A DNA stretch of 64,000 nucleotides, taken from the IMG/VR virus record IMGVR_UViG_3300028025_000091, positions 64,001 through 128,000 of that record; one strand, written 5' to 3'. A program made the position numbers and the translations under genes. This DNA comes from a virus. The notes below the pieces were generated by a model. That model was not told where the DNA came from. It worked only from the letters and a program-made list of their open reading frames with translations, and did not search any database. Positions 9,621 to 50,631 of this stretch are shown here, piece by piece (position 1 is the stretch's first letter; every line of letters starts with the position of its first letter).

Positions 9621-9647
9621 TATTTAATATTTATAAACAAAATAATC

Positions 9648-9953
9648 ATGGGAATTTTAACTAAACTTCAAAACCAAGGTTCAGTGTATGCATATGGTGC
9701 TAATAGTGCTTCTCCAACTAATGGAAATAATACCCCAAATGGACCACAATCTCCACTAGTAACCCCTCAATCCACATTACATGCGAGTCCTAATGGATCT
9801 CCAGGATATTCTTTAAATGGTGCTAATGGAACAACAGTAAATAGTTATTCTAACATATACCAAGATGGTGTACCAAATGCATTACCATCACCATCTACTT
9901 TAGACCTGAATGGTACTAACCCGACTCCATATTTATTGAACCCACCTCAATAA
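9648..9953 (+). CDS. Hypothetical structural protein (paralog of 9961..10290)
   Basis: Shares GIL.KL..QGS.Y, QSTLH, Y.DGV.N..PSP.TLD with the next ORF. Confidence 0.6.
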   Translation: MGILTKLQNQGSVYAYGANSASPTNGNNTPNGPQSPLVTPQSTLHASPNGSPGYSLNGANGTTVNSYSNIYQDGVPNALPSPSTLDLNGTNPTPYLLNPPQ

Positions 9954-9960
9954 GATAATT

Positions 9961-10290
9961 ATGTCTGATGGATTATTAGTTAAATTAACCACACAAGGTT
10001 CTCCATATTCAACCAATAATGGACAGAACCCTTATGTTAATCCATTATCTACCAAGCAGTCTACACTTCATTACGATTCTAAAACTAATACTGAAGGTTG
10101 GTCTGTTGGAGGGAAATTAACCCCAGCTAAACTGCAAACAATTCAAAATTATACGGCATATAATGATGGAGTATTTAATCCAATCCCATCTCCAACTACT
10201 TTAGATATTAATGATCCTGAAGGGGCCGATCCAAACTATAAATTAAAATATACACCAACAGACGGATATGAAAAAAGTAAATTTACTTAA
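9961..10290 (+). CDS. Hypothetical structural protein (paralog of 9648..9953)
   Basis: GLLVKLTTQGSPY, QSTLH, YNDGVFNPIPSPTTLD. Confidence 0.6.
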   Translation: MSDGLLVKLTTQGSPYSTNNGQNPYVNPLSTKQSTLHYDSKTNTEGWSVGGKLTPAKLQTIQNYTAYNDGVFNPIPSPTTLDINDPEGADPNYKLKYTPTDGYEKSKFT

Positions 10291-10310
10291 AATATCTACT
10301 TAACTAACAT

Positions 10311-24836: not shown

Positions 24837-24883
24837 AAACATGACATTTCCAATTGTTGTTAATATGTATAATAAAACAACAT

Positions 24884-25507
24884 ATGGTGATTTATTTAAC
24901 AACTCATGTTATAACTGGAAAAAAATATATTGGAAAGGATGTATCAAATAGTCCTAGTTATTTTGGAAGTGGAGCTGAAATTAAACAGATAATTAAAACA
25001 GAAGGTAAAAGTAATTTAGTTAAAACTATACTTGAACATTGTGATTGTAAAGAAGATTTAGCTAAACGAGAAGAATTTTGGTTGCAAAAGTTTGATGCCG
25101 AAAACAATCCATTGTTTATGAACAGAACAAACAAAGCTTTTGGAAATAGTGGACTTTCGGATGAAACAAAATTAAAGATTAAAATATCTAGTTTAGGTAA
25201 ACCAAAATCTACCGAAGCAAGAAATAATATGAGTAAAGGAAGAACAGGTAAAACTAGAAACCAAACAAAAGTTAGATCAGATAAGGGAAAACCAAGAGGA
25301 ATTAGCCCATGGGTTTCAGAAAGTCTTAAAACTAGAAATAGAGAATCTACCTTCAAACCAGTTATACAATATGATCTAGAAGGTAATATTGTTAGAGAAT
25401 ACAAATCTGCCCAAGAAGCAAAAGATATTACAAATTTAAAAATCCAGAATGCTCTTTTAGGAACTACTAAAACTTCTGGAGGTTATATTTGGAAATACAA
25501 AGAATAA
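24884..25507 (+). mobile_element. Free-standing GIY-YIG homing endonuclease with NUMOD3/NUMOD1-like DNA-binding regions
   Basis: VIY...KKYIGK, YFGSG, E..W; SDETKLKI; KPVIQYDLEGN..REY.SA.EA...TSGGYIWKY; ATATGTATAA motif at 24863. Confidence 0.85.
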
Positions 25508-29599: not shown

Positions 29600-29666
29600 C
29601 ATACGTATAACAGTAATAGGTTTTTCTTAATTGTTTTTTTTATTTTTAAACAAAACTAAACAAAAA

Positions 29667-31571
29667 ATGAAAAACCTTTTATTGTCCTTGTTACTTTTAA
29701 TAGTAACATTTAATGTATTTTCACAGGCACCGAATGCACCAGGAAATGGTATCTATGCCCTAATCCACCCAACTTATCAAGTTGGTCCTACTGCTACTGG
29801 TTTCACAACAGCTAATGTAACGTTGCAAAATACTACATTAACGAAATTTACAGCAACTCAATTTCGTGTGTTTTACGACAAAATTGCATTTACAAATGCT
29901 ACAGTTGCTTTAATTGGTTCTACAACTAACTTAGATATGCAATATGTAGTTAATGCTGCTAACGGTTACATTACTATTACGCTTGTATACACAGGTGCTT
30001 CTTCAACTTATACTTTAGCTGGTGGAGAAAGATTTGCAATTACATTCACACATGCTGCTCCTGCTGTATTTAACAATTTAGCTTCAATTACCAACTTAAC
30101 TTGGACAGGTGCTGCAACATTTTCACAATATGCTGCTAAACAAAATGGTATTGATACTACTTTGACATTGTACAATTATGGTGGTGTATTTACGTTACCT
30201 ACATTTACATTTGCTGGTACATTTACAAATACAACAGGTACTCCTGCTAAAAACTTACCATTAGCTTTACAAACTCGCCCTGCAGGTGGTTCCACTTGGA
30301 CACAACACTCAGCTTACTCAACTGATTTAACTGGTAACTTTACATTCACCGTTAACTTAGATACAACTTATTGGGATGTACGTTTAGCAATCCAAGGCGA
30401 TACAATGGGTATTGGAAATGCCATTTCAGCAACTGATGCACAATTGATTAATCAGTGGGTATTAGGAAACAGCACAATGTCTGGATTTGATTATTACACA
30501 GCAGATGTGAATGGCTCAAATAACGTAACAATCTCAGATGCTTATGGTGTATTTGCTAAAGTATCAGGTAACTTTACAATGTGGCCAAATAACGTTAAAA
30601 ACGTTAAATTCTTTACAGCAACCGAGTATACTACAATTAATAACTCGTCTACCAACTACACATCAACTATTGCAGGTGTCACCAACTTTACATACGAAAT
30701 CATAGCTGGACAACCTTCAACAGTAACATATTATGTTTGTGTACCGGGTGATGCGAATGGAACAGGATATCATATGGCTCGCCAAACACCAATTGAAATC
30801 TTGATTGATCCAATCCCTGGAATTCAAAATCAAATCTATAACGTAATCGATAACACAGTAGAATATGATTTTCCAACTGCACAAATTGAAGTAAACGTAC
30901 CTTATTTATCTGTACAAGCAGGAAATTTAGTTAACATTCCTGTAAAAGTGTTTACAAATGGGCAAGAATTGAATTCATTGCAATTTGGATTAAAATACGA
31001 TCCAACAGTACTTGAATTTAAAAATGCTTACTCTACTTCAAACGTAATGAAATGGTTAACATATATCAACCTAAATAACGACGAAGTTAAATGGGGTGGA
31101 TATGATGCAACAAATAATTTGAATCCATTACAAGATGGTGATGAAGTAATGACATTGCAATTTTTAGCTAAACAACCACAAAACGAATGGTTAGAAAGTC
31201 CACTTTATACAACTGATAAATTTGCAGGAGCTATCAATTCAAAAGATCTCGAAATTACACCTACAAACGGAATTTTACAAGTACTTAAATCAATCGGAGG
31301 CAAAGTAATTGACCCAAATACAATTGAAATCCAACCAAACCCAGTAACAGAAGATGTTGCAATTACATTCAACGTAACTTCAACTACAGAAGCTCATTTG
31401 GCGATTTATGATTTGCAAGGTAGAAAAATTATTACAATCCTAGACGGACAATTACCAGCAGGACAATTCACATATGTAAAAGATTTAGGTAAATTAGCTC
31501 AAGGAATGTATGTAGTTAATTTATCATTAGATAACGAAAACCCAATAAACACAAAGTTAATTAAACAATAA
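29667..31571 (+). CDS. Secreted cohesin/dockerin scaffold with T9SS type A C-terminal domain
   Basis: Signal peptide; cohesin-like QF...YD segments (TQFRVFYD, LQFGLKYDPTVLEF); dockerin-like ADVNGSNNVTISDA; CTD IQPNPV...IYDLQGR...L..GMY.V...KLIK. Confidence 0.8.
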   Translation: MKNLLLSLLLLIVTFNVFSQAPNAPGNGIYALIHPTYQVGPTATGFTTANVTLQNTTLTKFTATQFRVFYDKIAFTNATVALIGSTTNLDMQYVVNAANGYITITLVYTGASSTYTLAGGERFAITFTHAAPAVFNNLASITNLTWTGAATFSQYAAKQNGIDTTLTLYNYGGVFTLPTFTFAGTFTNTTGTPAKNLPLALQTRPAGGSTWTQHSAYSTDLTGNFTFTVNLDTTYWDVRLAIQGDTMGIGNAISATDAQLINQWVLGNSTMSGFDYYTADVNGSNNVTISDAYGVFAKVSGNFTMWPNNVKNVKFFTATEYTTINNSSTNYTSTIAGVTNFTYEIIAGQPSTVTYYVCVPGDANGTGYHMARQTPIEILIDPIPGIQNQIYNVIDNTVEYDFPTAQIEVNVPYLSVQAGNLVNIPVKVFTNGQELNSLQFGLKYDPTVLEFKNAYSTSNVMKWLTYINLNNDEVKWGGYDATNNLNPLQDGDEVMTLQFLAKQPQNEWLESPLYTTDKFAGAINSKDLEITPTNGILQVLKSIGGKVIDPNTIEIQPNPVTEDVAITFNVTSTTEAHLAIYDLQGRKIITILDGQLPAGQFTYVKDLGKLAQGMYVVNLSLDNENPINTKLIKQ

Positions 31572-31574
31572 GCT

Positions 31575-31898
31575 ATGTCAGAAACAGAAACAAACGACGG
31601 CACTTGGTCAGGCCTTAAAAAAACGATCGTTGGAACATTGTCAACAGTAATCACTGGAGGTGGTGTATGGTTAGGAACAACTCTTTATGGTGGTGGACAT
31701 AATGAAGAGCCTAAAGAAGAAACCAAAACAGAACAACCAGCAGCTGCTCCGGTAATTGTAAACGTTCAACAAAACCAAGAAAACAAACAAAAAGTTGAAA
31801 ATGGTGGGGGAACAATAATCCACGAACGAGTAATTGAAAAACCAGTAGTTACTCAACCAACTACACCAACACCAAAACCTCAAGAGGAATCATGGTAA
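31575..31898 (+). CDS. Small single-TM membrane protein
   Basis: Hydrophobic IVGTLSTVITGGGVWLG followed by a low-complexity tail. Confidence 0.6.
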   Translation: MSETETNDGTWSGLKKTIVGTLSTVITGGGVWLGTTLYGGGHNEEPKEETKTEQPAAAPVIVNVQQNQENKQKVENGGGTIIHERVIEKPVVTQPTTPTPKPQEESW

Positions 31899-32620
31899 AA
31901 TTTTTATTTATATTATTGACGCTAGGGTTGTTTTCTTGCAAAACAGCCCAAGCTCAAGGTGGTATAGGTACTGTTAAAACAGAACAATATCAAGCGGATT
32001 TTGAAAAAAAACAGTCACTTGATGTTGTATCCGATTATGATGGTTCAATTCAAATTCCCATCCAATTACTTAAAATTGGAATCAATGAGGAATTATATGA
32101 AATGTACCCTGAACTTAAAGACAAACGTGTTGGTTTAGGTGTAACAAACATTGTGATCGAATATCTTGAATATACTAATCGCTTTACGTTTACTGAGGAA
32201 AAAGAAGACATTAAGCAACGTATGATTGCTCAAGATAAAGCATCTGATAAAGGCATTTCATCAAATAAAATAGAGGTAAAAGGAAATGTAGTACTTGCCA
32301 AATATTTCGTTTATATTGAAGTCTATGATTTCAGTGTATCAGAAGACGAGATAGTTAAAGTAAATGGTAAACAAACCACAACACAAACAACACGTTTAGG
32401 ATTGCAGATTAAATTCGTAGATGCTGAAACCGGCCAAATCATTGTAGGTTCTGGTTTAGGCGAAGCAAACACGGTAAAAATGTCTTCTATATTAGAAGAT
32501 ATTACTGATGAAGTAAAATTCAACCAATCCACCATAGGTACTTCAACTAAAAAAGCATTAGAAACCGCATCATCCCGAGTTGTATCACGATTAATTAGTA
32601 AAGGTGTATTCAAGAATTGA
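31892..32620 (+). CDS. CsgG/HfaB-like outer-membrane protein (probable lipoprotein)
   Basis: Lipobox-like LFSC; L..TNRF.F.E; YDFSV; LGLQIKFVDAETGQII..SG.GEA; KKALE.A. Confidence 0.7.
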   Translation: MVKFLFILLTLGLFSCKTAQAQGGIGTVKTEQYQADFEKKQSLDVVSDYDGSIQIPIQLLKIGINEELYEMYPELKDKRVGLGVTNIVIEYLEYTNRFTFTEEKEDIKQRMIAQDKASDKGISSNKIEVKGNVVLAKYFVYIEVYDFSVSEDEIVKVNGKQTTTQTTRLGLQIKFVDAETGQIIVGSGLGEANTVKMSSILEDITDEVKFNQSTIGTSTKKALETASSRVVSRLISKGVFKN

Positions 32621-34113
32621 AAAAATACTTGTTTATATTATTTCTCCTGTGTACATTTAATATAAGCGCACAGACGTATAATTATAGTTATACTGATCCT
32701 TGTACTGGAAATTTAAAAACAATAATAGTTCCAATAAACGGTAATGTTACTGTTTCTTATTACGGTGAATTAGGATCATTTAATGCAAATGATTTTACAA
32801 ACGGAAATTTTGAGTCGTGGGCAAGTGGAATTTTTAACCAATATGGTCAAGATTCTCCATGTTCTCAAATTGTGGGGTTAGGAACTGCGGTTAATGTGAC
32901 ACAAAGTACAACTTTAAATGTTATGGGAATTTTAAATTCCCTATCAACAATAGCAAGTTTAACAGGTGGAGCAACAAATGTTTTAGGAGGAGCAGTTGGA
33001 TCAGTATCCAATTCTTCCGGAGATGGAGAAAGTAATAGTAACAATAACAAAAATAACAATGGAAACAATAATCCCAGTAATAATCCTAGTAACCCTAGTG
33101 GGGGTGGGAGTAGCATCCCTAATCAGCCTAATCAAAACCCACAAACTCAAAGTGGAGGAACACAAGAAGGAACAGGAACAAGCAGTAGCGAAACTAGTTC
33201 AAACCCTGAAGGAAGCGGGAGTACCGGTTCTACCTCATCCCCTGAAGGAGGAGGAAGTGAAGGAACAACCACAAGTGGTGAAAATGGAGGAACCAGTAGC
33301 GACCCAGGTAGTGGAAGCACCAGTAGTACTTCAGGAAACGGTAACGGTGGGCAAACCAGTCCGAACCAAGAAGGCTCGCAAACCACGTCCGAAAAAACAG
33401 AAGGCAAAACAAATATAACTGCCGGAGCTTCAACAACAGCTAAATCAACTCCAACCTCTAAAGAGGGAGGAAAACCAAGTGTAGTCGCGTCAAGCGACTT
33501 TGTTGGTTTTAACTTTAGAAACTCAGATGTTAAGACTGGATTAAAAGCAACAGGTGGTTATACAGCCATGAAATGGGATGGGAAACGTAGTTGGGGCGCA
33601 TTAGCCGATTATACTTCAGCTTTAAAAGGCCCAAACATTACATGCTTTTATGCTTGGATGAGACCAAAATCAGTAATTTTACTTTCAGGCACTGCAACTA
33701 TTGGATTTGAAGGAAATAAATCCTTATATGGCACTCTAGCATTTGGACAAATGTTCAAATTTAAAAAAGCACCTACCCTTAAAGTAGTTTATATGGCCAC
33801 AGCATCATACGGTCAAGTTTATAGAGTATCATTTTTGGGTACAGCAGTAATTGGTGGTGTAATGTATGATGTTAAAGTGGGTAAACGCATAGATATTAAA
33901 TTAATGAATTTGATGGTTTATGCTCCATATGTTTCATATTATAATGATGTTTTATTAAAGTCACCCTATGTAATGCTTCCTAGCATTGGAACAAACATAG
34001 GTATAACCAAGAAATTTAAATTTAACATAAACGCAGGAGGTGCTTGGGATTTAAAAACCGCAGCTCTAAACTATACAGTAACATGTGGTACAAGAATATT
34101 GGTAGGACAATAA
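32617..34113 (+). CDS. Secreted protein with S/G/N-rich linker and probable C-terminal beta-barrel
   Basis: Signal peptide; ~150-aa low-complexity linker; alternating hydrophobic strands over the C-terminal ~210 aa. Confidence 0.6.
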   Translation: MKKYLFILFLLCTFNISAQTYNYSYTDPCTGNLKTIIVPINGNVTVSYYGELGSFNANDFTNGNFESWASGIFNQYGQDSPCSQIVGLGTAVNVTQSTTLNVMGILNSLSTIASLTGGATNVLGGAVGSVSNSSGDGESNSNNNKNNNGNNNPSNNPSNPSGGGSSIPNQPNQNPQTQSGGTQEGTGTSSSETSSNPEGSGSTGSTSSPEGGGSEGTTTSGENGGTSSDPGSGSTSSTSGNGNGGQTSPNQEGSQTTSEKTEGKTNITAGASTTAKSTPTSKEGGKPSVVASSDFVGFNFRNSDVKTGLKATGGYTAMKWDGKRSWGALADYTSALKGPNITCFYAWMRPKSVILLSGTATIGFEGNKSLYGTLAFGQMFKFKKAPTLKVVYMATASYGQVYRVSFLGTAVIGGVMYDVKVGKRIDIKLMNLMVYAPYVSYYNDVLLKSPYVMLPSIGTNIGITKKFKFNINAGGAWDLKTAALNYTVTCGTRILVGQ

Positions 34114-35081
34114 CATTACTCGTATTATTTTCATGTAACTTGTTTTCCCAAACATTTACATATTCCGGTTACATCAGAAATGCTGATGGTACTGGAGCTG
34201 TAAATGTACCTGTTAAATTATACAAACGTACTACTCCGACATTAACTGGCTTTACATCTCAACAAAACTATAACGGACATTCATATTATCGCTCAACTGG
34301 AAATGCTTTTTGGACAGATGCAAGAACTGCTTGTTCAAACATGGGTGGTTATCTAGTAACTGTAACTTCAGCTGCTGAAAATAATTTTATATTCGGCTTA
34401 TGGCCTTCTGGTTGGATTGGTTTAACAGATGAGGTAAACGAAGGTGTGTGGAGATGGGTAACTGGAGAAGCTTACTCATATTCTTCATGGAACCCAGGCG
34501 AACCAAATAATGCGGGTAATGAAGATTATATTCAATTTGTTGGTGGGGGTAAATGGAATGATTTACCTAACAATCAATCATTACCTTATGTTATCGAATT
34601 TGATTATATTGTCACATATACTGCTTGGACAGTACAACAAACCGTTTATACAAATTCTTTAGGATATTATTCATTTTCCCAACCAACAAACCCTTCAGTT
34701 GAATGGTATATACAATTAGATGCTCCTACACCAGTAACATCTCACACTATAACAGATATTAGAGGTGTAACAGATAATATACTAGGCAATACAGTGCGAA
34801 AAAGCATACATTGGATACAATATGATACAAACAACGATGGAAAAATAAGCGTTTCAGATGCAATATATATCAATAGAAAACAAAACTTATTAGCAACATT
34901 CCCCTATACATCTAGAATATTTACTCCAACACAATATACCTCTTTAACAACGGGTACAACTGATTTACGCTCAACTATACCAGGTGTAAGTTCAATTACA
35001 ATTAACACTCCTGTAAGTGGTACCACAACAGGAAATTATTATTTAATCGCTCCTGGGTATAAGGGGCAAGTAACTTATTGA
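34083..35081 (+). CDS. C-type lectin + dockerin-like secreted protein
   Basis: YNGHSYY, W.DA..AC...GGYLV.V.S..EN.FI, WIGLTD, EG.W.W, W..GEPNN..NED, WND; dockerin-like YDTNNDGKISVSDA. Confidence 0.85.
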   Translation: MWYKNIGRTITLLVLFSCNLFSQTFTYSGYIRNADGTGAVNVPVKLYKRTTPTLTGFTSQQNYNGHSYYRSTGNAFWTDARTACSNMGGYLVTVTSAAENNFIFGLWPSGWIGLTDEVNEGVWRWVTGEAYSYSSWNPGEPNNAGNEDYIQFVGGGKWNDLPNNQSLPYVIEFDYIVTYTAWTVQQTVYTNSLGYYSFSQPTNPSVEWYIQLDAPTPVTSHTITDIRGVTDNILGNTVRKSIHWIQYDTNNDGKISVSDAIYINRKQNLLATFPYTSRIFTPTQYTSLTTGTTDLRSTIPGVSSITINTPVSGTTTGNYYLIAPGYKGQVTY

Positions 35082-35082
35082 C

Positions 35083-35532
35083 ATGAAACAGCTATTTTTA
35101 TCGTTATTTTTATTCCCGTTTATGCTAGTTGCACAACAATGTGTTTATGTAGATACAGTGTTTGTAACCGCAAAAGTAAGAGAATTAGGCACACGTGATA
35201 TTCGTTTTGGTATCAAACAAATTGCTGAAGATGCATTATCTGAAAAATATTGTTTGGATGAAACCGGTTTACCTATTAAAATTGAAATATACTATTTTGG
35301 TATTCCAAAAAATACCATTCGAGTGATGGGGGTAGAACGTTCAAACGTAATCACTCAAGTTGGAGTACGTTTACACTACAATAACTGTAAATATGAAGGT
35401 ATAGGCGAATCCGAAACCGAAATTACAGCAGTTTTAATCGAGGTAAAAGAAGGTACAATCCCATTTGAAAAAATGACTGTATCTAATTCCTTAAAAAAAG
35501 CCATAAATGAAGCAGTTAGTAAAATGCCTTAG
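35083..35532 (+). CDS. Secreted protein, distant paralog of the CsgG-like gene
   Basis: Signal peptide; GIGESET...FEK.TVSNSLKKAI matches GLGEANT...FNQSTIGTSTKKAL. Confidence 0.55.
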   Translation: MKQLFLSLFLFPFMLVAQQCVYVDTVFVTAKVRELGTRDIRFGIKQIAEDALSEKYCLDETGLPIKIEIYYFGIPKNTIRVMGVERSNVITQVGVRLHYNNCKYEGIGESETEITAVLIEVKEGTIPFEKMTVSNSLKKAINEAVSKMP

Positions 35533-35959
35533 TATATTCTTCCCACTTATACTTTCAGCTCAAATTAAAATAGATGATGTTGGAGATGGATGGAAAAATA
35601 AAGTTGAACAAGCAATAGAGGTTGTAAAACAATACGATTCGGAAAAGTATACTTTACTTACAGAAAATTGTAACCATATCAGCTATTCTCTTTTACCTTT
35701 TTCTACTACCGAAAGTAAAAATACAATCTTAATTTCTCAAAAAGAAATTTTAAAAGGAAATGTAAACGATATAGCTGCTATTTTAGTTCATGAATCTTTA
35801 CATTTATATTTTTTAAAAAACAACATAATCCTCCCCGAAAATGAGGAAGAAATATTGTGTTACACGTATGAGCTTGAATTGCTTTTTAAAATACCTGATG
35901 TAGAACCGTGGTTAATAGACCATGCAAAAAAACAAATTGAATTTTATACAAACCCTTAA
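35507..35959 (+). CDS. Secreted HEXXH zinc-metallopeptidase-like protein
   Basis: Signal peptide; ILVHESLH followed by EEE..CY. Confidence 0.6.
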   Translation: MKQLVKCLSIFFPLILSAQIKIDDVGDGWKNKVEQAIEVVKQYDSEKYTLLTENCNHISYSLLPFSTTESKNTILISQKEILKGNVNDIAAILVHESLHLYFLKNNIILPENEEEILCYTYELELLFKIPDVEPWLIDHAKKQIEFYTNP

Positions 35960-35982: not shown

Positions 35983-36231
35983 ATGAAAAAATTTTTTAAT
36001 CAATTGTTTGACGACAATAACTCAATCAACGAAAAAGCAGTAGTTGGTTTTATTGCATTTATTATGCTTTGCATATCATTAGCAGTAGATTTAATTACTG
36101 GAGCATGGGGTAAAGAATTATTAATTAACAAATTCATTTTTGATGGATTTATGGTAATTGTATTAGGGTCATTCGGAATTGCTTCCGTTGACAAGTGGAT
36201 TAACAAGAAAAAAGATAAAGACGAAGAGTAA
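35983..36231 (+). CDS. Holin-like membrane protein
   Basis: Two TM segments and a charged C-terminus; overlaps the endolysin start. Confidence 0.6.
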   Translation: MKKFFNQLFDDNNSINEKAVVGFIAFIMLCISLAVDLITGAWGKELLINKFIFDGFMVIVLGSFGIASVDKWINKKKDKDEE

Positions 36232-36842
36232 TGAGTTTAAAAAGTTTACAAGAAAAGATCGGAGTTACCGCGGATGGTGCTTTTGGTCCCGGAACGTTGA
36301 AAGCCGCAATGGCATTTTACAAACTAACCCCAGTACGTGCAGCACATTTCTTTGCACAAACAGCACATGAAACTGGTGAGTATAAATTGTTTAGTGAAAA
36401 CCTAAACTATTCAGCAGCAGGTTTGCAAGGTACTTTTGGAAAATATTTTCCTGGTACACTAGAAGAATCTTACGCTCGTAACCCTGAAAAAATTGCTAAC
36501 AGAGTTTATGCAGATAGAATGGGTAACGGAAACGAAGCTTCAGGTGACGGATGGAAATACAGAGGTCGTGGTGCATTACAATTAACTGGAAAAGCTAATT
36601 ATAAAGCATTTGCTGATTATTTGAAAAAACCTGAAATTATGGAAACACCTGATTTAGTAGCATCAACATATGCTTTTGAATCAGCAATGTTCTTCTTTGA
36701 CAAAAACAAATTATGGTCAATTTGTGATCAAGGTGTGAATGAAGCAGCTATTTTGGCTTTAACAAAACGCATCAATGGTGGAACAAATGGTTTAGACCAT
36801 AGAAAATTATTAACTAACAAATATTACGGATACGTAAAATAA
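36231..36842 (+). CDS. Endolysin, glycoside hydrolase family 19, with short peptidoglycan-binding N-terminus
   Basis: LQ..IG..ADG.FGPGT; FFAQTAHET, ENLNYS, DGWKYRGRG.LQLTGK.NY, TKRINGG.NGL..R. Confidence 0.92.
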   Translation: MSLKSLQEKIGVTADGAFGPGTLKAAMAFYKLTPVRAAHFFAQTAHETGEYKLFSENLNYSAAGLQGTFGKYFPGTLEESYARNPEKIANRVYADRMGNGNEASGDGWKYRGRGALQLTGKANYKAFADYLKKPEIMETPDLVASTYAFESAMFFFDKNKLWSICDQGVNEAAILALTKRINGGTNGLDHRKLLTNKYYGYVK

Positions 36843-36847
36843 GAATT

Positions 36848-37315
36848 ATGCAATTAAGTGAACATTTAGCATTAGCAGAAGTTACAAAAAGTGACACTGC
36901 AAAACGTAAAGGAATTTCAAACATGCCTACTGAAGCGCATTTAGCAAATTTCAAATTATTGGCAGAAAATATTTTTGAACCAATCAGAGTTCATTTTGGA
37001 GTCCCAATCCATTTATCTTCAGGATACCGCTCAGCTGAATTAAATAAAGCTGTTGGTGGTGCTCTTTCTTCCCAACATTGTAGTGGTGAAGCAATTGATA
37101 TTGATATGGATGGACGTCCTGGTGGAGTTACCAATAAAATGGTGTTTGATTATATCAAAGATAATTTAAATTTTGATCAATTAATTTGGGAATTTGGAAC
37201 ATCTACAGCTCCAGATTGGGTACACGTTTCTTATGAATCAACAGGTAAACAAAGAAAGCAAATCCTTAAAGCAGTTCGCAAAGGTAGTGCTACATCTTAT
37301 GTACCATATAAATAA
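36848..37315 (+). CDS. Peptidase M15A (endolysin-like)
   Basis: SSGYRS..LN.AVGG...SQH..GEA.D, FDQLIWE, WVHVSY. Confidence 0.9.
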   Translation: MQLSEHLALAEVTKSDTAKRKGISNMPTEAHLANFKLLAENIFEPIRVHFGVPIHLSSGYRSAELNKAVGGALSSQHCSGEAIDIDMDGRPGGVTNKMVFDYIKDNLNFDQLIWEFGTSTAPDWVHVSYESTGKQRKQILKAVRKGSATSYVPYK

Positions 37316-37333: not shown

Positions 37334-37498
37334 ATGAAAAAAGAGCAAGTTTTAGGAATTATCCGTCACTCCTTAACATTTATTGGAGGTATCCTTTTAA
37401 TGAAAGGATTGATTGACGAAGCTACTTGGACTGAAATCTCAGGAAGTGCTTTAACATTAGTTGGTACTGTTTGGTCAGTAGTAGATAAAAACAAGTAA
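37334..37498 (+). CDS. Small holin-like protein (not in ORF track)
   Basis: Translated by hand: MKKEQVLGIIRHSLTFIGGILLMKGLIDEATWTEISGSALTLVGTVWSVVDKNK; two TM segments. Confidence 0.7.
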   Translation: MKKEQVLGIIRHSLTFIGGILLMKGLIDEATWTEISGSALTLVGTVWSVVDKNK

Positions 37499-37517: not shown

Positions 37518-37544
37518 AGAGCCCCAATTAGGGGCTCTTTTTTT
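37518..37544 (+). terminator. Intrinsic terminator after lysis cassette
   Basis: agagcccc-aatta-ggggctct followed by a T run. Confidence 0.85.
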
Positions 37545-43431: not shown

Positions 43432-43923
43432 ATGGCTACAACAAAAATATTAGGTTCAGAGATTACGGCATCAAATGCAATAAGTGCTTCATTTGCTACT
43501 TCCGCTCAAACAGTGTTAGGAAGTGTAACAAGTGCTTCATTTGCATCCACTGCTTCTTCTGTCAATCCACTTAACCAGAATGTAATCTTAACCGGATCCT
43601 TAAGAGGACAAGTATCTCTTCTTTCAATAGCATCTAATACTGCTTCTGTTAATATGTCATCTAATAACTTTTTTACTTTAACCCTAGTAAACGGAGCAAA
43701 CACTCATATTAACCCCACCAATATACAACCAGGACAAACAGTTAATATACGTGTTACCCAAGGATCTTTAGGAACAGGAACCGTAAGTTTTCCATCTTTC
43801 GTTGATCAACCCAGTGGTTCTTTGTATACGGGATCTATGATAGCAAATGCTATTGATATAGTAACAATGATTACTTTTGATTCATCAGTGGTATTTATGA
43901 GTTCTGTAAGAAATATGATATAA
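43432..43923 (+). CDS. Fibre-associated structural protein
   Basis: SASFA repeats; NNFFTLTL, NIQPGQT...Q...G..TV.F, DI.T. Confidence 0.6.
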   Translation: MATTKILGSEITASNAISASFATSAQTVLGSVTSASFASTASSVNPLNQNVILTGSLRGQVSLLSIASNTASVNMSSNNFFTLTLVNGANTHINPTNIQPGQTVNIRVTQGSLGTGTVSFPSFVDQPSGSLYTGSMIANAIDIVTMITFDSSVVFMSSVRNMI

Positions 43924-43926
43924 GTT

Positions 43927-46900
43927 ATGTTTACACCATTTGCCTTCATACAACCTATAACAACAGCTATCCCGATTACTCCCTCAACACAGTATTTGTT
44001 GATTGGAGGATCGTTTACTTTATATAATGTTCCCGTATTAAACCGAATGGTTAAAATAGATGCAAATGGTGATATAGATAATTCGTTTAATATAGGAACA
44101 GGTTTTGGTAATGTTCCATTTGATATCAAACAACAACCCGATGGAAAATATGTTGTAGGAGGAAACTTTACTTCATATAGTGGTTCTAGTGTAAATTATT
44201 TAACACGTTTAAATCATAATGGTACTAGAGATACTTCACTTAATATAGGAACTGGATTCAATTCTGCTCTATATACTGTTTCTCCCCAATCAGATAATTC
44301 GAATATAGTAGTAGGAGCATTTACTTCATATAATGGTTCTGCAGGGAAAAATTATATAGCAAAAATTACCCCTTCGGGTAGCCTAGATGCAACTTTCAAT
44401 ACGGGAATAGGCTTTAATAATAGTAGCACATATACTATAATTACCCAAGCAGACGGTAAACCTATAATTGGTGGAATATTTACCCAATATAGTAGTTCTA
44501 ATAATTATATAACCAGAACCGATTTATCAGGCTCATACAACGCAGGCCCGGGAACGGGATTTAATACTGGTGTTGGATTTAATAATGTTGTCTATACATA
44601 TGCTACACAATCCGATGGAAAAATCATTTTAGGAGGATCATTCACCCAATACAGTGGTTCCTCAACTAATACTACAAGATTAATTCGATTAAATACTAAT
44701 GGTACCCAAGATACTTCATTTGTAACCGGAGTTGGATTTAATACAGATGTTTATACAATTAAAGTACAAACAGATGGAAAAATAATTGTAGGTGGACTTT
44801 TTACTACTTATAGTGGTTCAACTGTAAACTACATTACAAGACTTAATTCAAGTGGTTCCATAGACACTACATTTAATACAGGAACAGCTGCTTCTTCAAC
44901 GGTATGGGATAGTCATATCCAATCAGATGGAAAAATTGTTATAGTAGGTGGATTTGGTACATATAGTGGATCTTCAAACCCAGGTATTGTAAGAATTAAT
45001 AATAGTGGATCTAAAGATGCTACTTTTAATGTAGGAGCAGGAACTGTTGGTGCTGCATATTCAATAAACCCTACTGGGTCTCAATATATTGTAGGAGGAA
45101 ACTTTACTTCATATAGTGGTTCTTCTAATAATTACATAGTTCGTATAAATTCTGATGGTACTAAAGATACATCATTTAATATTGGTACAGGATTTAGTAG
45201 CACAGTAAATGATACTACAATAGAACCTAATGGAAAAATTTTAGCAATAGGACAATTTACAACATATAGTGGTTCCTCAACAAACACCACTAGAATAATC
45301 AGATTAAACCCAAATGGTACCCAAGACACAACATTTGTAACAGGAACGGGATTGAATCAAGTTACCCCCAACGGAAACCACCTTTCAATAGAATCAGATG
45401 GTAAAATATATGTTGGATCTCAAATGGCTACTTATAGTGGGTCAACTGTTAACTTTTTTGCTAGGATTAATCCTAGTGGAACTTTAGACACTACATTTAA
45501 TGGATATACATCCAACATTGCTTATGGAATAGGATTTAATAATGTTATAAGAACATTATTTATATCTGGGTCTAATATCTATTTTGGAGGAAGTTACATA
45601 GCCTATAAACCAACAAACCGAATTATTAGATTAAACACTAATGGTACTCAAGATACTACATTTTCTCTTGGAGAAGGAATTACTGGTGGTCAAAATACTA
45701 TTTATTCCTTAGTTTCTCAATCTGATGGAAAAATTATAGCAGTAGGAGCATTTTCTACTTATCAAGGATTCTCCCAAAATAACATTACTAGACTTAATAC
45801 AGATGGTACTAGAGATACAACATTTAATATAGGTACAGGATTTAATAATACTGCAACCTCAGCAACTGTACAACCAGATGGAAAAATAGTTATTATGGGA
45901 CTTTTTACTACATATAGTGGTTCCTCTTCAAACCGTATAATTCGCCTTAACCCTAGTGGTACTTTAGATACAACATTTAATATTGGAGCTGGAATTGATA
46001 CCGTAAGCAGCGCAGTTGGAGCTTCTAAGATTATTTCCACCCCAGATAACAAAGTTTATGCTACTACAGTAGGTATGGCTAGTTATAGTGGTTCATCTAT
46101 TGGTAATCTTGTTAAAATTAATTCAAGTGGTTCTATAGATACCACATTTGGTACTACTTCTTCATTTTCTTTTAATAGTACTGGAAGGGGATTTTATGCT
46201 GCATCTAGCCCTGGTGGATACACATTGATTCTTAGTGGTTCAAGCGTAATAGTAGGAGGACAATTCTTAACATATAAAAATACAGCATTTCTGTATGGTG
46301 GCATGATAGATACAACAGGTGCCATTTCTTCTTCATTTAACATAGGGGCAGGATTTAGTACTACAGTTCGAACATGGGTTACTCAATCTGATGGTAAAAT
46401 TTTAGCAGCCGGAGCATTTACCACATATAGTGGTTCCTCAACTAATACAACACGAATTATTCGTTTAAATAGAAATGGTACCCGAGATACTTCATTTGTA
46501 ATAGGAACTGGATTCAACAGTACTGTAACAGATCTTAGAATACAATCTGATGGAAAAATATTAGCAATAGGACAATTCACAACATATAGTGGATCCTCAA
46601 CTAGTGGAATAGTTCGTTTAAACATAAGCGGTACTCGTGATACTACATTTAATGTAGGAACAGGTTTTACATTAGCACCAGATGCTAGACATTGTAAAAT
46701 TCAATCAGATGGAAAAGTTGTAGTAGTAGGTAACTTTACTACATATAGTGGCTCTACACAACAATATATTACTCGAATTAATACTGATGGTACTAGAGAT
46801 ACAACCTTTAATATAGGCACAGGATTTAATAACACTGCAGAAGCAGTGATTCTTCAACCTGATGGAAAATTAATTGTAGGAGGACAATTTACAACATATA

Positions 46901-47364
46901 GCGGATCAAGTCAAAACCGTATAACCCGAATAAATACAGATGGTACTCTTGATACTACATTCAATTCAGGAACAGGATTTGGTGGACCGACATATGCTTT
47001 AGCACTCCAATCTGATGGAAAAATAATATGTACCCATCAAAATCAAACATATAGTGGTTCTACAACTAGATATATAACACGGATTAACCCTAGTGGTACT
47101 TTTGATAATACATTTAACGCGGATGCAAATTCTTCTTTATCCTCTACATCAAATACCCAAAATAGTTTAGTAATTGCTAATGATGGCTCAATATATTGGG
47201 GAAATGCTTTTACTACTTTTAGTGGATCTTTTATACCAAACCGTATAGTAAGATTAAATACTAATGGATCAGTAGATGAAACATTTAACCAAGCATTCCC
47301 TAATTTTGTTAACAATACAGGAAAAGGAGCAGATAGTACAGTAAACGCAGTATTATTAATATAA
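43927..47364 (+). CDS. Delta-60 repeat (beta-propeller) protein
   Basis: Many repeats of Q.DGKI..GG.FTTYSGS...I.RLN..GT.DTTFN.GTGF. Confidence 0.88.
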   Translation: MFTPFAFIQPITTAIPITPSTQYLLIGGSFTLYNVPVLNRMVKIDANGDIDNSFNIGTGFGNVPFDIKQQPDGKYVVGGNFTSYSGSSVNYLTRLNHNGTRDTSLNIGTGFNSALYTVSPQSDNSNIVVGAFTSYNGSAGKNYIAKITPSGSLDATFNTGIGFNNSSTYTIITQADGKPIIGGIFTQYSSSNNYITRTDLSGSYNAGPGTGFNTGVGFNNVVYTYATQSDGKIILGGSFTQYSGSSTNTTRLIRLNTNGTQDTSFVTGVGFNTDVYTIKVQTDGKIIVGGLFTTYSGSTVNYITRLNSSGSIDTTFNTGTAASSTVWDSHIQSDGKIVIVGGFGTYSGSSNPGIVRINNSGSKDATFNVGAGTVGAAYSINPTGSQYIVGGNFTSYSGSSNNYIVRINSDGTKDTSFNIGTGFSSTVNDTTIEPNGKILAIGQFTTYSGSSTNTTRIIRLNPNGTQDTTFVTGTGLNQVTPNGNHLSIESDGKIYVGSQMATYSGSTVNFFARINPSGTLDTTFNGYTSNIAYGIGFNNVIRTLFISGSNIYFGGSYIAYKPTNRIIRLNTNGTQDTTFSLGEGITGGQNTIYSLVSQSDGKIIAVGAFSTYQGFSQNNITRLNTDGTRDTTFNIGTGFNNTATSATVQPDGKIVIMGLFTTYSGSSSNRIIRLNPSGTLDTTFNIGAGIDTVSSAVGASKIISTPDNKVYATTVGMASYSGSSIGNLVKINSSGSIDTTFGTTSSFSFNSTGRGFYAASSPGGYTLILSGSSVIVGGQFLTYKNTAFLYGGMIDTTGAISSSFNIGAGFSTTVRTWVTQSDGKILAAGAFTTYSGSSTNTTRIIRLNRNGTRDTSFVIGTGFNSTVTDLRIQSDGKILAIGQFTTYSGSSTSGIVRLNISGTRDTTFNVGTGFTLAPDARHCKIQSDGKVVVVGNFTTYSGSTQQYITRINTDGTRDTTFNIGTGFNNTAEAVILQPDGKLIVGGQFTTYSGSSQNRITRINTDGTLDTTFNSGTGFGGPTYALALQSDGKIICTHQNQTYSGSTTRYITRINPSGTFDNTFNADANSSLSSTSNTQNSLVIANDGSIYWGNAFTTFSGSFIPNRIVRLNTNGSVDETFNQAFPNFVNNTGKGADSTVNAVLLI

Positions 47365-49975: not shown

Positions 49976-50215
49976 ATGAAAAAATTAGTATTAATATTAG
50001 CAGTATTAGGATTAACAAGTTGTGTTAATCAAATGGACCGTCTAAAAGACGCTCAAAAAAAGTATCCAAAATGTATTGTACAACCAACAACAAGTTTACT
50101 AGCCAGAGATGGATATGAAATTATGGTAGAAGATACCATCACTAATCAAATTTATGTATTGAGTTACTACTCATTTAGTACAACAAAAATTTCAAGTATC
50201 CGAAACATCAAGTAA
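49976..50215 (+). CDS. Small lipoprotein
   Basis: MKKLVLILAVLGLTSC lipobox. Confidence 0.7.
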   Translation: MKKLVLILAVLGLTSCVNQMDRLKDAQKKYPKCIVQPTTSLLARDGYEIMVEDTITNQIYVLSYYSFSTTKISSIRNIK

Positions 50216-50631
50216 TGGAACTACTAAACACACACCCAATTAAAAAATCCGATTTAGGTTTCCATGGAAATCTATTTGGTGGCAAATTACTATCATGGAT
50301 AGATGCTTCAGCTGCAGGTTATGCAATGCAACTTTGTGATACCCCGAGAATGGTAACAGTATCGATTGATCAATGCAACTTTGAGAAACCAGCCAAGGAA
50401 TCCCAACTATTAAAAATTTATGGATATCCAAAACGTGTAGGAAACAGCTCAATGACTCTTTATATGGAAGCAAGAGCCCATAATGTTTATACAGGCAAAC
50501 AGGATATTGTATTGAAAACAAACACTACATTTGTTCAGATTGATGAAGGTGGAAATTCAATCCCACTTGGTGAAAAAGCTAAAAAGAGAATTAATGGGAT
50601 GCTTGGAGAAAACTTGGTTTTTGAAAAATAA
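50215..50631 (+). CDS. Acyl-CoA thioesterase (hotdog fold, YciA-like)
   Basis: DL..HGNLFGGKLLSWID, VT.SID...F.KP, VG.SS, TFVQIDE.G. Confidence 0.88.
   Translation: MELLNTHPIKKSDLGFHGNLFGGKLLSWIDASAAGYAMQLCDTPRMVTVSIDQCNFEKPAKESQLLKIYGYPKRVGNSSMTLYMEARAHNVYTGKQDIVLKTNTTFVQIDEGGNSIPLGEKAKKRINGMLGENLVFEK

What the first reader, a model, noticed from the sequence alone, without database searches (positions are those of the whole stretch)
29601..35959. Phage-encoded cohesin-dockerin / T9SS / CsgG-like surface-assembly operon
Seen: seven tightly coupled genes, six with signal peptides and one with a single TM segment. They encode a scaffold (cohesin-like, dockerin-like, cohesin-like, T9SS type A CTD), a TM protein, a CsgG-like lipoprotein, a linker + beta-barrel protein, a C-type lectin-dockerin protein, a second CsgG-like protein and a HEXXH peptidase. 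Established: cohesin-dockerin pairs build cellulosome-type complexes; T9SS CTDs direct export and surface attachment in Bacteroidota; CsgG forms outer-membrane secretion pores. Signal-peptide proteins are unlikely to be cytoplasmically assembled virion parts. Inference: the phage builds a modular, lectin-bearing complex on the infected cell's surface, possibly for receptor masking, superinfection exclusion, aggregating new hosts before lysis, or grazing avoidance. I know of no characterised phage system like this.
Basis: partly seen in the sequence, partly recalled or inferred. Interest (0 to 1): 0.88.

Follow-up and report, generated by a model that had tools for sequence, protein, structure and literature searches.

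The report
Phage envelope module fused to lysis genes
A 174-kb Flavobacterium-type phage carries seven genes for exported host-envelope proteins in one tightly packed run of genes with its holin and endolysin genes; the block recurs in over 100 uncultured phage contigs, and no experiment has yet shown what it does.

Summary
Observation confirmed and extended. Window 29667-35959 holds seven coupled + strand genes.
- p1: T9SS type A cargo with a cohesin domain and a dockerin-like loop.
- p2: single-pass inner-membrane protein.
- p3: CsgG-superfamily lipoprotein.
- p4: small N-domain, 170-aa disordered linker and a 12-strand barrel like autotransporter translocators.
- p5: EPN-type C-type lectin with a dockerin-like loop.
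- p6: short paralog of p3.
- p7: secreted protein with invariant HExxH.

It runs without a terminator into a 2-TM holin-like gene, a GH19 endolysin, an M15 endolysin and a Pfam-confirmed holin, and ends at a strong terminator (37518-37538).

Across 30 dereplicated related loci with full flanks, GH19 lies beside the module in 25. A small 2-TM gene lies inside the module in 19. The p3 family is almost purely viral: it matched 2 of 301 Flavobacteriaceae genomes. Among cultured phages only Immutovirus has it.

Best reading (about 0.4): a late envelope and egress cassette. p2-p3-p4-p6 act at the outer membrane at lysis. p1-p5 form a T9SS-displayed lectin scaffold.

The parts have precedents: CsgG/CsgF in phage Melnitz and T9SS cargo in Cryophage. 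The whole does not. This scan has met the same module in several other phage genomes.

The parts
29667..31571 (+). p1 (634 aa): signal peptide, weakly cohesin-like N-domain, beta-sandwich, dockerin-like Ca loop (aa 252-293), cohesin (aa 407-506), T9SS type A C-terminal domain (aa 557-632).
   Evidence: Pfam and NCBIfam. PDB profile hits dockerin 4uyp_B at 1.6e-3 and T9SS CTDs 8glk/8glj. Own-genome cohesin scan. CTD residues are invariant in 33 orthologs.
31575..31898 (+). p2 (107 aa): bitopic inner-membrane protein. Short acidic N-terminus, one TM helix, Pro/Lys/Glu-rich periplasmic tail, invariant C-terminal Trp. Its stop overlaps the p3 start.
   Evidence: Alignment of 32 orthologs. No Pfam family.
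31892..32620 (+). p3 (242 aa): CsgG/LpoB-superfamily protein with a lipobox (LFSC). It is the best conserved gene of the block (72-97% identity).
32617..34113 (+). p4 (498 aa): signal peptide, small N-domain with two invariant Cys, helix 94-115, disordered Gly/Ser/Asn/Thr linker 115-285, and a 12-strand outer-membrane beta-barrel 288-496.
   Evidence: AF2 model, barrel pLDDT 60-80. VIA-align gives Z 20.9 to AaaA, 19.4 to NalP and 17.7 to AIDA-I. Foldseek finds EspP, NanC and FapF.
34083..35081 (+). p5 (332 aa): signal peptide, beta-sandwish split by an EPN-type C-type lectin domain, dockerin-like Ca loop, and a C-terminal region shared with p1 aa 211-361.
   Evidence: Pfam Lectin_C 1.4e-16. 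BLASTP against p1 gives 2e-7. EPN, WND and the DxNxD..D loop are invariant.
35083..35532 (+). p6 (149 aa): secreted short paralog of p3. It lacks p3's insertion at about aa 105-138. A Cys is invariant just after the signal peptide.
   Evidence: hhalign A1 against A2: 93.8%, E 1.7e-7. Alignment.
35507..35959 (+). p7 (150 aa): secreted small putative zinc metallopeptidase (HExxH followed by EE).
   Evidence: Invariant H95, E96, H99, E114 and E115. ESM Atlas features point to DUF6647 and eCIS_core zincins at 0.93. No PDB sequence match.
35983..36231 (+). orf82: 2-TM protein with a charged C-tail (holin-like). Its stop overlaps the ATG of the GH19 gene. In many relatives this gene sits between p2 and p3.
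36231..36842 (+). GH19-type endolysin without a signal peptide. It is the most conserved neighbour of the module.
   Evidence: phrog_181 at 1e-61. Pfam Glyco_hydro_19. Present in 34 of 50 dereplicated loci and in 25 of 30 with full flanks.
36848..37315 (+). Second endolysin, Peptidase_M15_3.
37334..37498 (+). 54-aa holin of the Pam3 gp28 family.
   Evidence: Pfam Phage_holin_10, E 9.8e-19, 67.6 bits against a cut-off of 27.
37518..37538 (+). Intrinsic terminator (8-bp stem with 6 GC pairs, then a T run). It is the first strong terminator after p1.
   Evidence: sequence.

Best explanation
The block is a phage-specific envelope module that belongs to the phage's lysis and egress cassette. It is not a free-standing surface operon.

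Proposed action, late in infection:
1. p2 is inserted in the inner membrane. Its roughly 65-residue extended tail reaches into the periplasm.
2. p3, a CsgG/PelC/LptE-fold protein that is mostly lipid-anchored, and its soluble paralog p6 sit at the inner face of the outer membrane. They sit beside p4, an autotransporter-like 12-strand barrel with a long flexible tether.
3. p1 is exported by the host's T9SS and stays on the surface. Its cohesin can hold the dockerin-like module of the mannose-type lectin p5.
4. p7, and a secreted nuclease in many relatives, are exo-enzymes.
5. When the holin fires and the endolysins remove the wall, the p2-p3-p4-p6 set weakens or opens the outer membrane, a spanin-like role. 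The p1-p5 lectin coat covers host glycans on the cell and its debris. That would limit re-adsorption of progeny and superinfection.

Shown: gene content, folds, export signals, synteny with lysis genes, and viral restriction. Inferred: localisation, the contacts between the proteins, timing and purpose.
For: - One gene string with no strong predicted terminator from p1 to 37518-37538. It contains orf82 (2 TM), GH19, M15 and a Pfam holin.
- Among 50 dereplicated related loci, the commonest non-module neighbour is GH19 (34 loci). Next come the orf82 family and a secreted nuclease (21 each). No other neighbour exceeds 19.
- Among 30 loci with at least 2.5 kb on both sides, GH19 is present in 25. 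A small 2-TM gene is present in 23 and lies inside the module in 19.
- The arrangement varies: GH19 is upstream and divergent, downstream, or upstream on the same strand. Flanking genes differ between loci. So module and lysis genes move as a unit.
- Distant loci in MAGs labelled Sediminibacterium and Flavobacterium keep holin-like gene, GH19, p1, p2 and p3 together.
- The genome has only three lipobox ORFs. None has a C-terminal TM helix (no unimolecular spanin). Only p3 sits next to a type-II membrane protein, p2, which it overlaps by 7 nt.
- p3's fold class is ring-forming outer-membrane lipoproteins that partner with barrels or trans-envelope structures: CsgG Z 12.7, PelC 10.0, LptE 9.7, PqiC 8.9.
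- p2's strictly conserved C-terminal Trp suggests a docking motif.
- Published precedent: phage CsgG/CsgF of Melnitz and pelagimyophages has been proposed to act in lysis timing (PMC9004378).
Against: - No experiment exists, and no expression data could be obtained.
- p3 is a 220-aa globular protein, unlike the small proline-rich o-spanins. Its lipobox Cys is absent in 5 of the 23 aligned sequences.
- p2 is proline-rich and has no sign of the coiled coils of i-spanins.
- The cultured relative immuto keeps the module without an adjacent GH19 or holin-like gene.
- A T9SS cargo, a lectin and cohesin-dockerin parts have no role in canonical lysis. T9SS export takes time before lysis.
- The p3 model has low confidence (pLDDT 53.6).
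- orf82 has no family match, so 'holin' is inferred only from its topology and position.
Confidence: 0.4

Rival explanations
1. This is a surface-display system unrelated to the lysis mechanism. The phage dresses the infected cell with a T9SS-anchored cohesin scaffold carrying a lectin, and with p4's tethered N-domain. The purpose is receptor masking, superinfection exclusion or cell aggregation. The lysis genes lie next to it only because envelope-directed genes are expressed together.
For: - The domain content is that of display systems: T9SS CTD, cohesin, dockerin-like loop, and an EPN lectin with invariant sugar and Ca residues.
- p4 resembles autotransporter translocators, which display passengers.
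- Lectin proteins vary in size and architecture between loci, from 322 to 636 aa. That fits an adaptive surface function.
- Immuto keeps the module away from its lysin.
- The outer-membrane lipoprotein TraT, a surface-exclusion protein, shares the fold weakly (Z 7.3).
Against: - It does not explain why small 2-TM holin-like genes sit inside the module in 19 of 30 loci, or why GH19 follows the module through rearrangements.
- It does not explain the inner-membrane protein p2 or the periplasmic p6.
- p5 has no T9SS CTD and no surface-lipoprotein signal, so how it would reach the surface is unexplained.
Confidence: 0.3
2. An outer-membrane export conduit. p3 forms a CsgG-like oligomeric channel, with or without p4. 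The channel lets phage exoproteins that lack a T9SS tag (lectin p5, peptidase p7, the secreted nuclease of relatives) or other molecules cross the outer membrane before or at lysis. This is analogous to type VIII secretion.
For: - p3's best structural match is CsgG (Foldseek 3.4e-7; VIA-align Z 12.7).
- Distant relatives of p3 pass Pfam's CsgG cut-off.
- Several module proteins have only a Sec signal.
- A secreted Endonuclease_NS gene lies inside the module in many relatives.
- Phage CsgG/CsgF pores without curli subunits are known in Melnitz and pelagimyophages (PMC9004378, PMC7029224).
Against: - p3 itself gets no Pfam CsgG hit at E < 0.1.
- No CsgE, CsgF or CsgA family turned up in the Pfam scans of the module proteins.
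- Membrane-spanning hairpins could not be identified in the low-confidence model.
- Folded lectins and enzymes are too large for a CsgG-type channel about 1 nm wide (established knowledge of CsgG).
- Other members of the fold (PelC, LptE, LpoB, PqiC) are not channels.
Confidence: 0.12
3. A cluster of unrelated accessory genes (morons). The genes encode independent envelope proteins that sit in a recombination-tolerant spot next to the lysis genes. They do not form one machine.
For: - p5, p7 and the nuclease vary in position, and p7 and the nuclease also in presence.
- p1 is split into two genes in immuto.
- Unrelated small genes are inserted in some loci.
Against: - p1, p2, p3, p4 and p6 are kept in the same order in nearly all of the 50 dereplicated loci, although the flanks are unrelated.
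- Genes overlap or abut, which suggests translational coupling.
- p1 and p5 share a module, and p3 and p6 are paralogs. This points to a co-evolving set.
Confidence: 0.08

Closest known systems
Phage-encoded CsgG/CsgF ('curli pore') of Methylophilales phage Melnitz and pelagimyophages (PMC9004378; PMC7029224)
   Same: - A CsgG-family outer-membrane protein is encoded by a large myophage.
- The family is absent from the host, and there are no curli fibre genes.
[quoted passage not shown]
   Different: - p3 is only a distant superfamily member with no direct Pfam CsgG hit.
- No CsgF was found.
- The hosts here are Bacteroidota.
- p3 comes with a T9SS cohesin cargo, a lectin, an autotransporter-like barrel, an inner-membrane partner and a zincin.
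- Holin-like genes are interleaved with the module.
Two-component spanins (lambda Rz/Rz1, T4 PseT.3/PseT.2)
   Same: - A type-II inner-membrane protein gene overlaps a gene for an outer-membrane lipoprotein.
- The pair lies in the same gene string as holin and endolysin.
- It is the only such pair in the genome.
   Different: - There are no coiled coils in the inner-membrane partner.
- The lipoprotein is large and globular with a CsgG fold, and is not always lipidated.
- Additional barrel and paralog genes are present.
- A survey reports that Bacteroidetes phages carry only unimolecular spanins (PMC12596118).
Phage-encoded T9SS type A cargo ('Cryophage', Bellas et al. 2020, PMC7468147)
   Same: A phage of Bacteroidota encodes proteins with the T9SS C-terminal sorting domain. 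They are presumed to be exported by the host's machinery.
   Different: - There the cargo are variable enzymes and a PA14 protein in flexible islands.
- Here the cargo is a conserved cohesin scaffold inside a fixed multi-gene envelope module.
Type Va autotransporters (NalP, AIDA-I, EspP, AaaA)
   Same: p4 has an N-terminal extracytoplasmic domain, a helix and a C-terminal 12-strand barrel. Matches have Z 17-21 and rmsd 3.0-3.5 over 229-240 residues.
   Different: - No Pfam Autotransporter match.
- 170 disordered residues lie between the helix and the barrel.
- The passenger is tiny (about 70 aa).
- The protein ends in Gly-Gln (Leu in a distant subgroup), not in an aromatic residue.
Barrel plus lipoprotein pairs PelB-PelC and LptD-LptE
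   Same: A CsgG/PelC/LptE-fold lipoprotein is encoded next to an outer-membrane barrel (PelC Z 10.0, LptE Z 9.7).
   Different: No sequence relationship to these systems. p4's barrel has 12 strands and is not PelB- or LptD-like. No polysaccharide or LPS pathway genes are present.
Non-cellulosomal cohesin-dockerin modules
   Same: A cohesin domain at Pfam threshold, and dockerin-like Ca loops in two proteins of one operon.
   Different: Both dockerin calls are below threshold, with only one canonical Ca loop each. There are no glycoside hydrolases. Binding between the two is untested.

Membership tests
T9SS type A cargo | C-terminal sorting domain (Pfam PF18962 / TIGR04183) above the curated cut-off, together with an N-terminal Sec signal | tested here: met
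   p1 scores 38 bits against a cut-off of 27, and 35.7 against 23. The signal peptide is visible in the sequence. CTD residues are conserved in 33 orthologs.
T9SS type A cargo | The host has a T9SS and exports the protein | not testable with these tools
   The host is inferred to be Flavobacterium-like from the relative phage immuto. Flavobacterium has a T9SS (established knowledge). Export is untested.
Cohesin-dockerin pair | Cohesin domain (PF00963) at or above the gathering score | tested here: met
   p1 aa 407-506 scores 24.3 bits against 24.1, and 27.1 bits in the genome scan. This is marginal. The N-domain scores only 13.8 bits (E 0.006), and hhalign of the N-domain against the C-domain is not significant.
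Cohesin-dockerin pair | Dockerin with two Ca-binding F-hand repeats (PF00404) above the gathering score | tested here: inconclusive
   p1 scores 17-21 bits and p5 15-19 bits against a cut-off of 22.9. A profile hits the ScaB dockerin at E 0.0016. One canonical D-x-N-x-D..D loop is invariant in each protein.
Cohesin-dockerin pair | Specific binding of the dockerin to the cohesin | not testable with these tools
   No multimer prediction or assay was available.
CsgG (curli / type VIII secretion channel) | Membership of Pfam PF03783 | tested here: inconclusive
   p3 itself has no hit at E < 0.1. However, its profile finds proteins at E 1e-12 to 1e-22 that pass the CsgG cut-off, for example P0072 at 43.9 bits and P0087 at 50.5 bits. 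ESM Atlas neighbours are CsgG/HfaB clusters at 0.93-0.94.
CsgG (curli / type VIII secretion channel) | CsgG fold | tested here: met
   Foldseek's top hit is 4uv2 at E 3.4e-7. VIA-align's top hit is 6lqh_A at Z 12.7, rmsd 3.5, 150 aligned residues. The model is of low confidence (pLDDT 53.6). PelC, LptE and Cj1090c score within about 1-3 Z units.
CsgG (curli / type VIII secretion channel) | N-terminal lipidation | tested here: inconclusive
   A lipobox is present in the window's p3 and in most orthologs. It is missing in 5 of the 23 aligned sequences.
CsgG (curli / type VIII secretion channel) | Partner genes csgE, csgF and csgA/B | tested here: not met
   No such family appeared in the Pfam scans of all module and flanking proteins.
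CsgG (curli / type VIII secretion channel) | Nonameric 36-strand membrane channel | not testable with these tools
   Only monomer models were available, at low confidence.
Type Va autotransporter | C-terminal 12-strand barrel with a preceding helix | tested here: met
   12 strands at 288-496. Z is 20.9, 19.4 and 17.7 to AaaA, NalP and AIDA-I, with the aligned range starting at residues 79-87, before helix 94-115. The helix is separated from the barrel by 170 disordered residues, which is atypical.
Type Va autotransporter | Pfam Autotransporter beta-domain (PF03797) | tested here: not met
   p4 has no Pfam hit at E < 0.1.
Two-component spanin | i-spanin: N-in, C-out single TM helix with a periplasmic coiled coil | tested here: inconclusive
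   The topology fits p2. The tail is Pro/Lys/Glu-rich with short beta-prone segments, and no coiled coil is evident. No coiled-coil predictor was run.
Two-component spanin | o-spanin: small outer-membrane lipoprotein encoded adjacent to, or overlapping, the i-spanin gene in the lysis cassette | tested here: inconclusive
   Adjacency, overlap and the lysis context are met. Size (242 aa, globular) and universal lipidation are not met.
Holin (orf82) | Small protein with two or more TM helices and a charged C-tail, next to the endolysin gene | tested here: met
   The sequence has two hydrophobic helices and ends KKKDKDEE. Its stop overlaps the GH19 start. There is no Pfam or PHROG family, so function is inferred. 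The separate 54-aa ORF is a Pfam Phage_holin_10 member.
C-type lectin (Ca-dependent carbohydrate binding) | Lectin_C domain with EPN/QPD and WND motifs | tested here: met
   E 1.4e-16. EPN, E147 and W158-N159-D160 are invariant in 13 orthologs.
Zincin metallopeptidase (p7) | HExxH plus a third ligand, conserved | tested here: met
   H95, E96, H99, E114 and E115 are invariant in 28 orthologs. The family assignment (DUF6647 / eCIS_core-like) rests only on ESM Atlas features at 0.93. Activity is untested.

The most novel reading that the evidence does not exclude
p2-p3-p4-p6 are a new kind of outer-membrane breaching machine for phages of Bacteroidota, and they replace spanins. An inner-membrane protein docks by its C-terminal Trp into a CsgG-fold ring beside an autotransporter-like barrel. 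The assembly opens or tears the outer membrane once the wall is gone. The host's own T9SS is used to plant a cohesin-lectin coat that stops progeny from sticking to the debris.
Probability: 0.2. Interest if true: 0.9.

Novelty: new variant of a known kind. Interest (0 to 1): 0.72.

Why it matters
How phages of Bacteroidota get through the outer membrane at lysis is poorly understood. A recent survey found only unimolecular spanins in them (PMC12596118), and this genome has no recognisable spanin.

This gene set is widespread and restricted to viruses. It is physically tied to the holin and endolysin genes. It consists entirely of envelope proteins: a CsgG-fold lipoprotein, an autotransporter-like barrel and an inner-membrane partner. 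That makes it a concrete and testable candidate for the missing step.

Whatever its purpose, it would also be an example of a virus using its host's type IX secretion system to place a modular, sugar-binding scaffold on the infected cell. That bears on superinfection, on loss of progeny to cell debris, and on particle aggregation in lakes and seas.

A cultured system exists for experiments: Flavobacterium phage immuto on Flavobacterium sp. LMO8.

Tried and rejected
- Profile searches of p3, p6 and p7 against PDB sequences gave nothing meaningful.
- PHROGs gave no function for any of the seven proteins. NCBIfam added only the T9SS domain.
- hhalign of the p1 N-domain against its cohesin domain was not significant (P 0.18), although a cohesin-like motif lines up.
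- A canonical spanin was sought and not found. The genome has three lipobox ORFs. The 79-aa lipoprotein at 49976-50215 is followed by a thioesterase-like protein without a TM helix. The 81-aa one has no TM partner or C-terminal TM helix.
- A possible cellular counterpart lies on a 6.8-kb KSB1 MAG contig: a p3-like gene, a 414-aa signal-linker-barrel-like gene and a p6-like gene, beside a histidine kinase.
  - The 414-aa protein shows no detectable homology to p4.
  - The p6-like match is real (95.7%).
  - Only 2 of 151 genomes of that phylum have a match, so it is not a common cellular system.
- The two families of small 2-TM proteins (orf82 type and 'c7' type) are not demonstrably homologous.
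- An upstream motif, TTTCGTATATT, is enriched in the genome: its 8-mer core CGTATATT occurs in 23 of 68 intergenic regions. The 11-mer has no exact copy in the window, so it gave no timing information. The sigma-70 scan was at chance level.
Because of this, no gene contexts of distant p3 relatives and no expression data could be obtained.
p1, p2, p5, p6 and p7 were not folded here.

Full report
**Context.** The window is bases 64001-128000 of a 173,789-bp IMG/VR virus record rated complete. All large ORFs are on the + strand.
- Upstream of the finding lie replication and nucleotide genes: SSB, UvsX-like recombinase, exonuclease, DnaB, NrdB and NrdA.
- The nearest cultured relatives are the 160-kb Flavobacterium myophages vB_FspM_immuto (Immutovirus). 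They share this region at about 71% DNA identity.

**The observation.** Seven ORFs, here called p1 to p7, lie at 29667-35959. They overlap or are separated by a few bases.
- Six have signal peptides that end in the AQ or SQ typical of Bacteroidota. p3 has a lipobox. p2 has one TM helix.
- The likely start of p5 is ATG 34083.
- A crude scan finds 14 signal-like N-termini among 226 ORFs of the genome. Five of them are in this block, and TTG-started p4 makes six.

**What each protein is.**
- **p1.** It carries a T9SS type A sorting domain above threshold and a cohesin domain just above threshold. It also has a sub-threshold dockerin. A profile of 33 orthologs hits a solved dockerin (4uyp_B, E 0.0016) and two solved T9SS C-terminal domains. 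The N-domain gives only a weak cohesin signal (one search is not significant).
- **p5.** It is a C-type lectin (E 1.4e-16). EPN, WND and one EF-hand or dockerin-type loop are invariant. It shares its beta-sandwich, dockerin-like segment and C-terminal region with p1 aa 211-361.
- **p3.** It has no Pfam hit.
  - Its language-model neighbours are CsgG/HfaB/LpoB clusters.
  - Its profile finds 266 cluster representatives. The distant ones pass Pfam's CsgG cut-off.
  - Its AF2 model has low confidence (pLDDT 53.6). It is nevertheless closest to CsgG by Foldseek (3.4e-7) and by VIA-align (Z 12.7). PelC, LptE, Cj1090c and PqiC follow.
- **p6.** It is a shorter paralog of p3 (hhalign 93.8%). It is probably a soluble, disulfide-bonded periplasmic protein.
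- **p4.** The model shows a small N-domain with two invariant cysteines, a helix, 170 disordered residues and a 12-strand barrel. The barrel matches autotransporter translocators best: Z 20.9 to AaaA, 19.4 to NalP and 17.7 to AIDA-I, with alignments that begin upstream of the helix. Twelve-strand porins and FapF score lower.
- **p7.** HExxH and a downstream EE are invariant. It resembles DUF6647 and eCIS_core zincins by features only.
- **p2.** It is a bitopic protein with a proline-rich periplasmic tail and a strictly invariant C-terminal Trp.

The gene string continues past 35959.
- 23 bases after p7 comes an 82-aa protein with two TM helices and a KKKDKDEE tail. Its stop overlaps the start of a GH19 endolysin that has no signal peptide.
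- An M15 peptidase endolysin follows.
- A 54-aa ORF then matches Pfam Phage_holin_10 at E 1e-18.
- Only then comes a strong terminator, at 37518-37538.

**Comparative evidence.** Searching IMG/VR with p3 confirmed 150 relatives, of which 80 loci were kept. They come from contigs of up to 309 kb. All of them keep the module. I clustered all ORFs of these loci and dereplicated the loci to 50.

| Gene | Loci of 50 with it |
|---|---|
| p3 | 50 |
| p1 | 44 |
| p6 | 43 |
| p7 | 41 |
| p2 | 40 |
| p4 | 37 |
| GH19 endolysin | 34 |
| orf82 family | 21 |
| secreted DNA/RNA non-specific endonuclease | 21 |
| any other neighbour | 19 or fewer |

(The endonuclease assignment is.)

- Among 30 loci with at least 2.5 kb on both sides, GH19 is present in 25. 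A small 2-TM gene (orf82 type or a second type, 'c7') is present in 23. It lies inside the module, between p2, p3 and p4, in 19.
- GH19 sits on either side and on either strand, and the outer flanks are unrelated between groups.
- More distant loci on MAG contigs labelled Sediminibacterium and Flavobacterium keep the holin-like gene, GH19, p1, p2 and p3 together.
- Module and lysis genes therefore behave as one mobile unit. Immuto is an exception: its module has no adjacent lysin.

**Origin.**
- The p3 profile matched only 2 of 301 Flavobacteriaceae genomes. One of those two is a MAG that carries a phage-like contig.
- Among 50,697 cultured phage records, only immuto has p3.
- Atlas clusters of p3 and p7 are 97-100% viral.
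- The block is therefore not a recent host fragment.

**Mechanism.** The data show an all-envelope gene set fused to the lysis cassette. They do not show what it does.
- I favour (0.4) a late egress module. p2-p3-p4-p6 would act at the outer membrane when the wall is removed.
  - This is the only pair in the genome that joins an inner-membrane protein gene to a lipoprotein gene.
  - p3's fold class consists of outer-membrane rings that partner with barrels or trans-envelope structures.
  - p1-p5 would form a T9SS-delivered lectin coat.
- Against this reading:
  - p3 is large and is not always lipidated.
  - p2 shows no coiled coil.
  - A lectin scaffold has no role in canonical lysis.
- The rivals are a pure surface-display or exclusion system (0.3), an export channel (0.12) and an unrelated cluster of accessory genes (0.08).

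**Prior knowledge.**
- Phage CsgG/CsgF without fibre genes is known in pelagimyophages and in phage Melnitz. There a role in timing lysis was proposed from synteny and models (PMC9004378; PMC7029224).
- Phage-encoded T9SS cargo was reported once, for 'Cryophage' (PMC7468147).
- Virus-encoded dockerins with signal peptides have been discussed for viruses from alkane-oxidising enrichment cultures, one contig possibly from a virus of ANME-2 archaea (PMC13452462).
- I found no paper on this combined module or on the immuto genes.
- This scan has already met the same module in several other phage genomes. Follow-up notes there also place it beside lysis genes. I reached the lysis link from my own loci before reading those notes. 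I took the two literature leads from them and checked both papers.

**Limits.**
- Both structure models have low overall confidence.
- Only two predictions were allowed.
- No localisation, interaction or expression data exist.

Noticed in passing
window 37334-37498: A 54-aa ORF, too short for the default ORF list, is a clear Pfam Phage_holin_10 (Pam3 gp28 family) holin. None of the related loci has it within 8 kb of the module.
   Followed up: yes
L006:11191-11772 and homologs; immuto gene 12 in L001:7234-7812: A secreted DNA/RNA non-specific endonuclease (Pfam Endonuclease_NS, 2e-26) with a signal peptide sits inside the module in 21 of 50 dereplicated loci. It is absent from this window.
   Followed up: partly
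L016:7624-8004 and homologs ('c7' family): A second family of roughly 120-aa proteins has two TM helices and an acidic tail. It occupies the slot between p2, p3 and p4 in many loci. It is not demonstrably related to orf82.
   Followed up: partly
proteins P0103, P0106, P0114, P0135, P0139: In bacteria, p3-like CsgG-superfamily domains occur fused to caspase (Peptidase_C14) domains and to Ser/Thr protein kinases. This suggests the fold also serves as a periplasmic sensor or anchor domain.
   Followed up: no
L088 (KSB1 MAG contig, 6.8 kb): A p3-like lipoprotein gene, a 414-aa gene (signal, acidic linker, beta-rich C-terminus ending in Phe) and a p6-like gene lie beside a histidine kinase. This may be a rare cellular or mobile counterpart of the p3-p4-p6 trio.
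   Followed up: partly
whole genome (outside the window): The motif TTTCGTATATT is strongly enriched upstream of genes: its 8-mer core CGTATATT is in 23 of 68 intergenic regions, with 32 copies in the genome. The 11-mer has no exact copy in this 64-kb window. It is probably a promoter of another temporal class.
   Followed up: partly
window 43927-47364: A 1145-aa protein has 19 DUF5122 beta-propeller repeats (Pfam E 9e-208). It follows a tail-fibre-like gene (43432-43923) and a 1432-aa ORF with no family.
   Followed up: no
window 3694-5892: A 732-aa ORF in the structural region has a signal-peptide-like N-terminus (MKKLLIFLLLTSIGYGQ). This is unusual for a virion protein.
   Followed up: no
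window 49976-50631: A 79-aa lipoprotein gene has a stop that overlaps the start of a gene for a 138-aa protein that looks (by eye, untested) like an acyl-CoA thioesterase. Homologs of the latter lie next to the orf82-type gene in loci L044 and L047.
   Followed up: partly
window 24854-25507: A homing-endonuclease-like ORF (phrog_314) is inserted between the exonuclease and DnaB genes.
   Followed up: no
L001 (immuto) 8897-10721: In the cultured phage immuto, p1 is split into two genes of 363 aa and 243 aa. The second is annotated as a cohesin domain protein. The lectin gene lies upstream of the scaffold instead of downstream.
   Followed up: no
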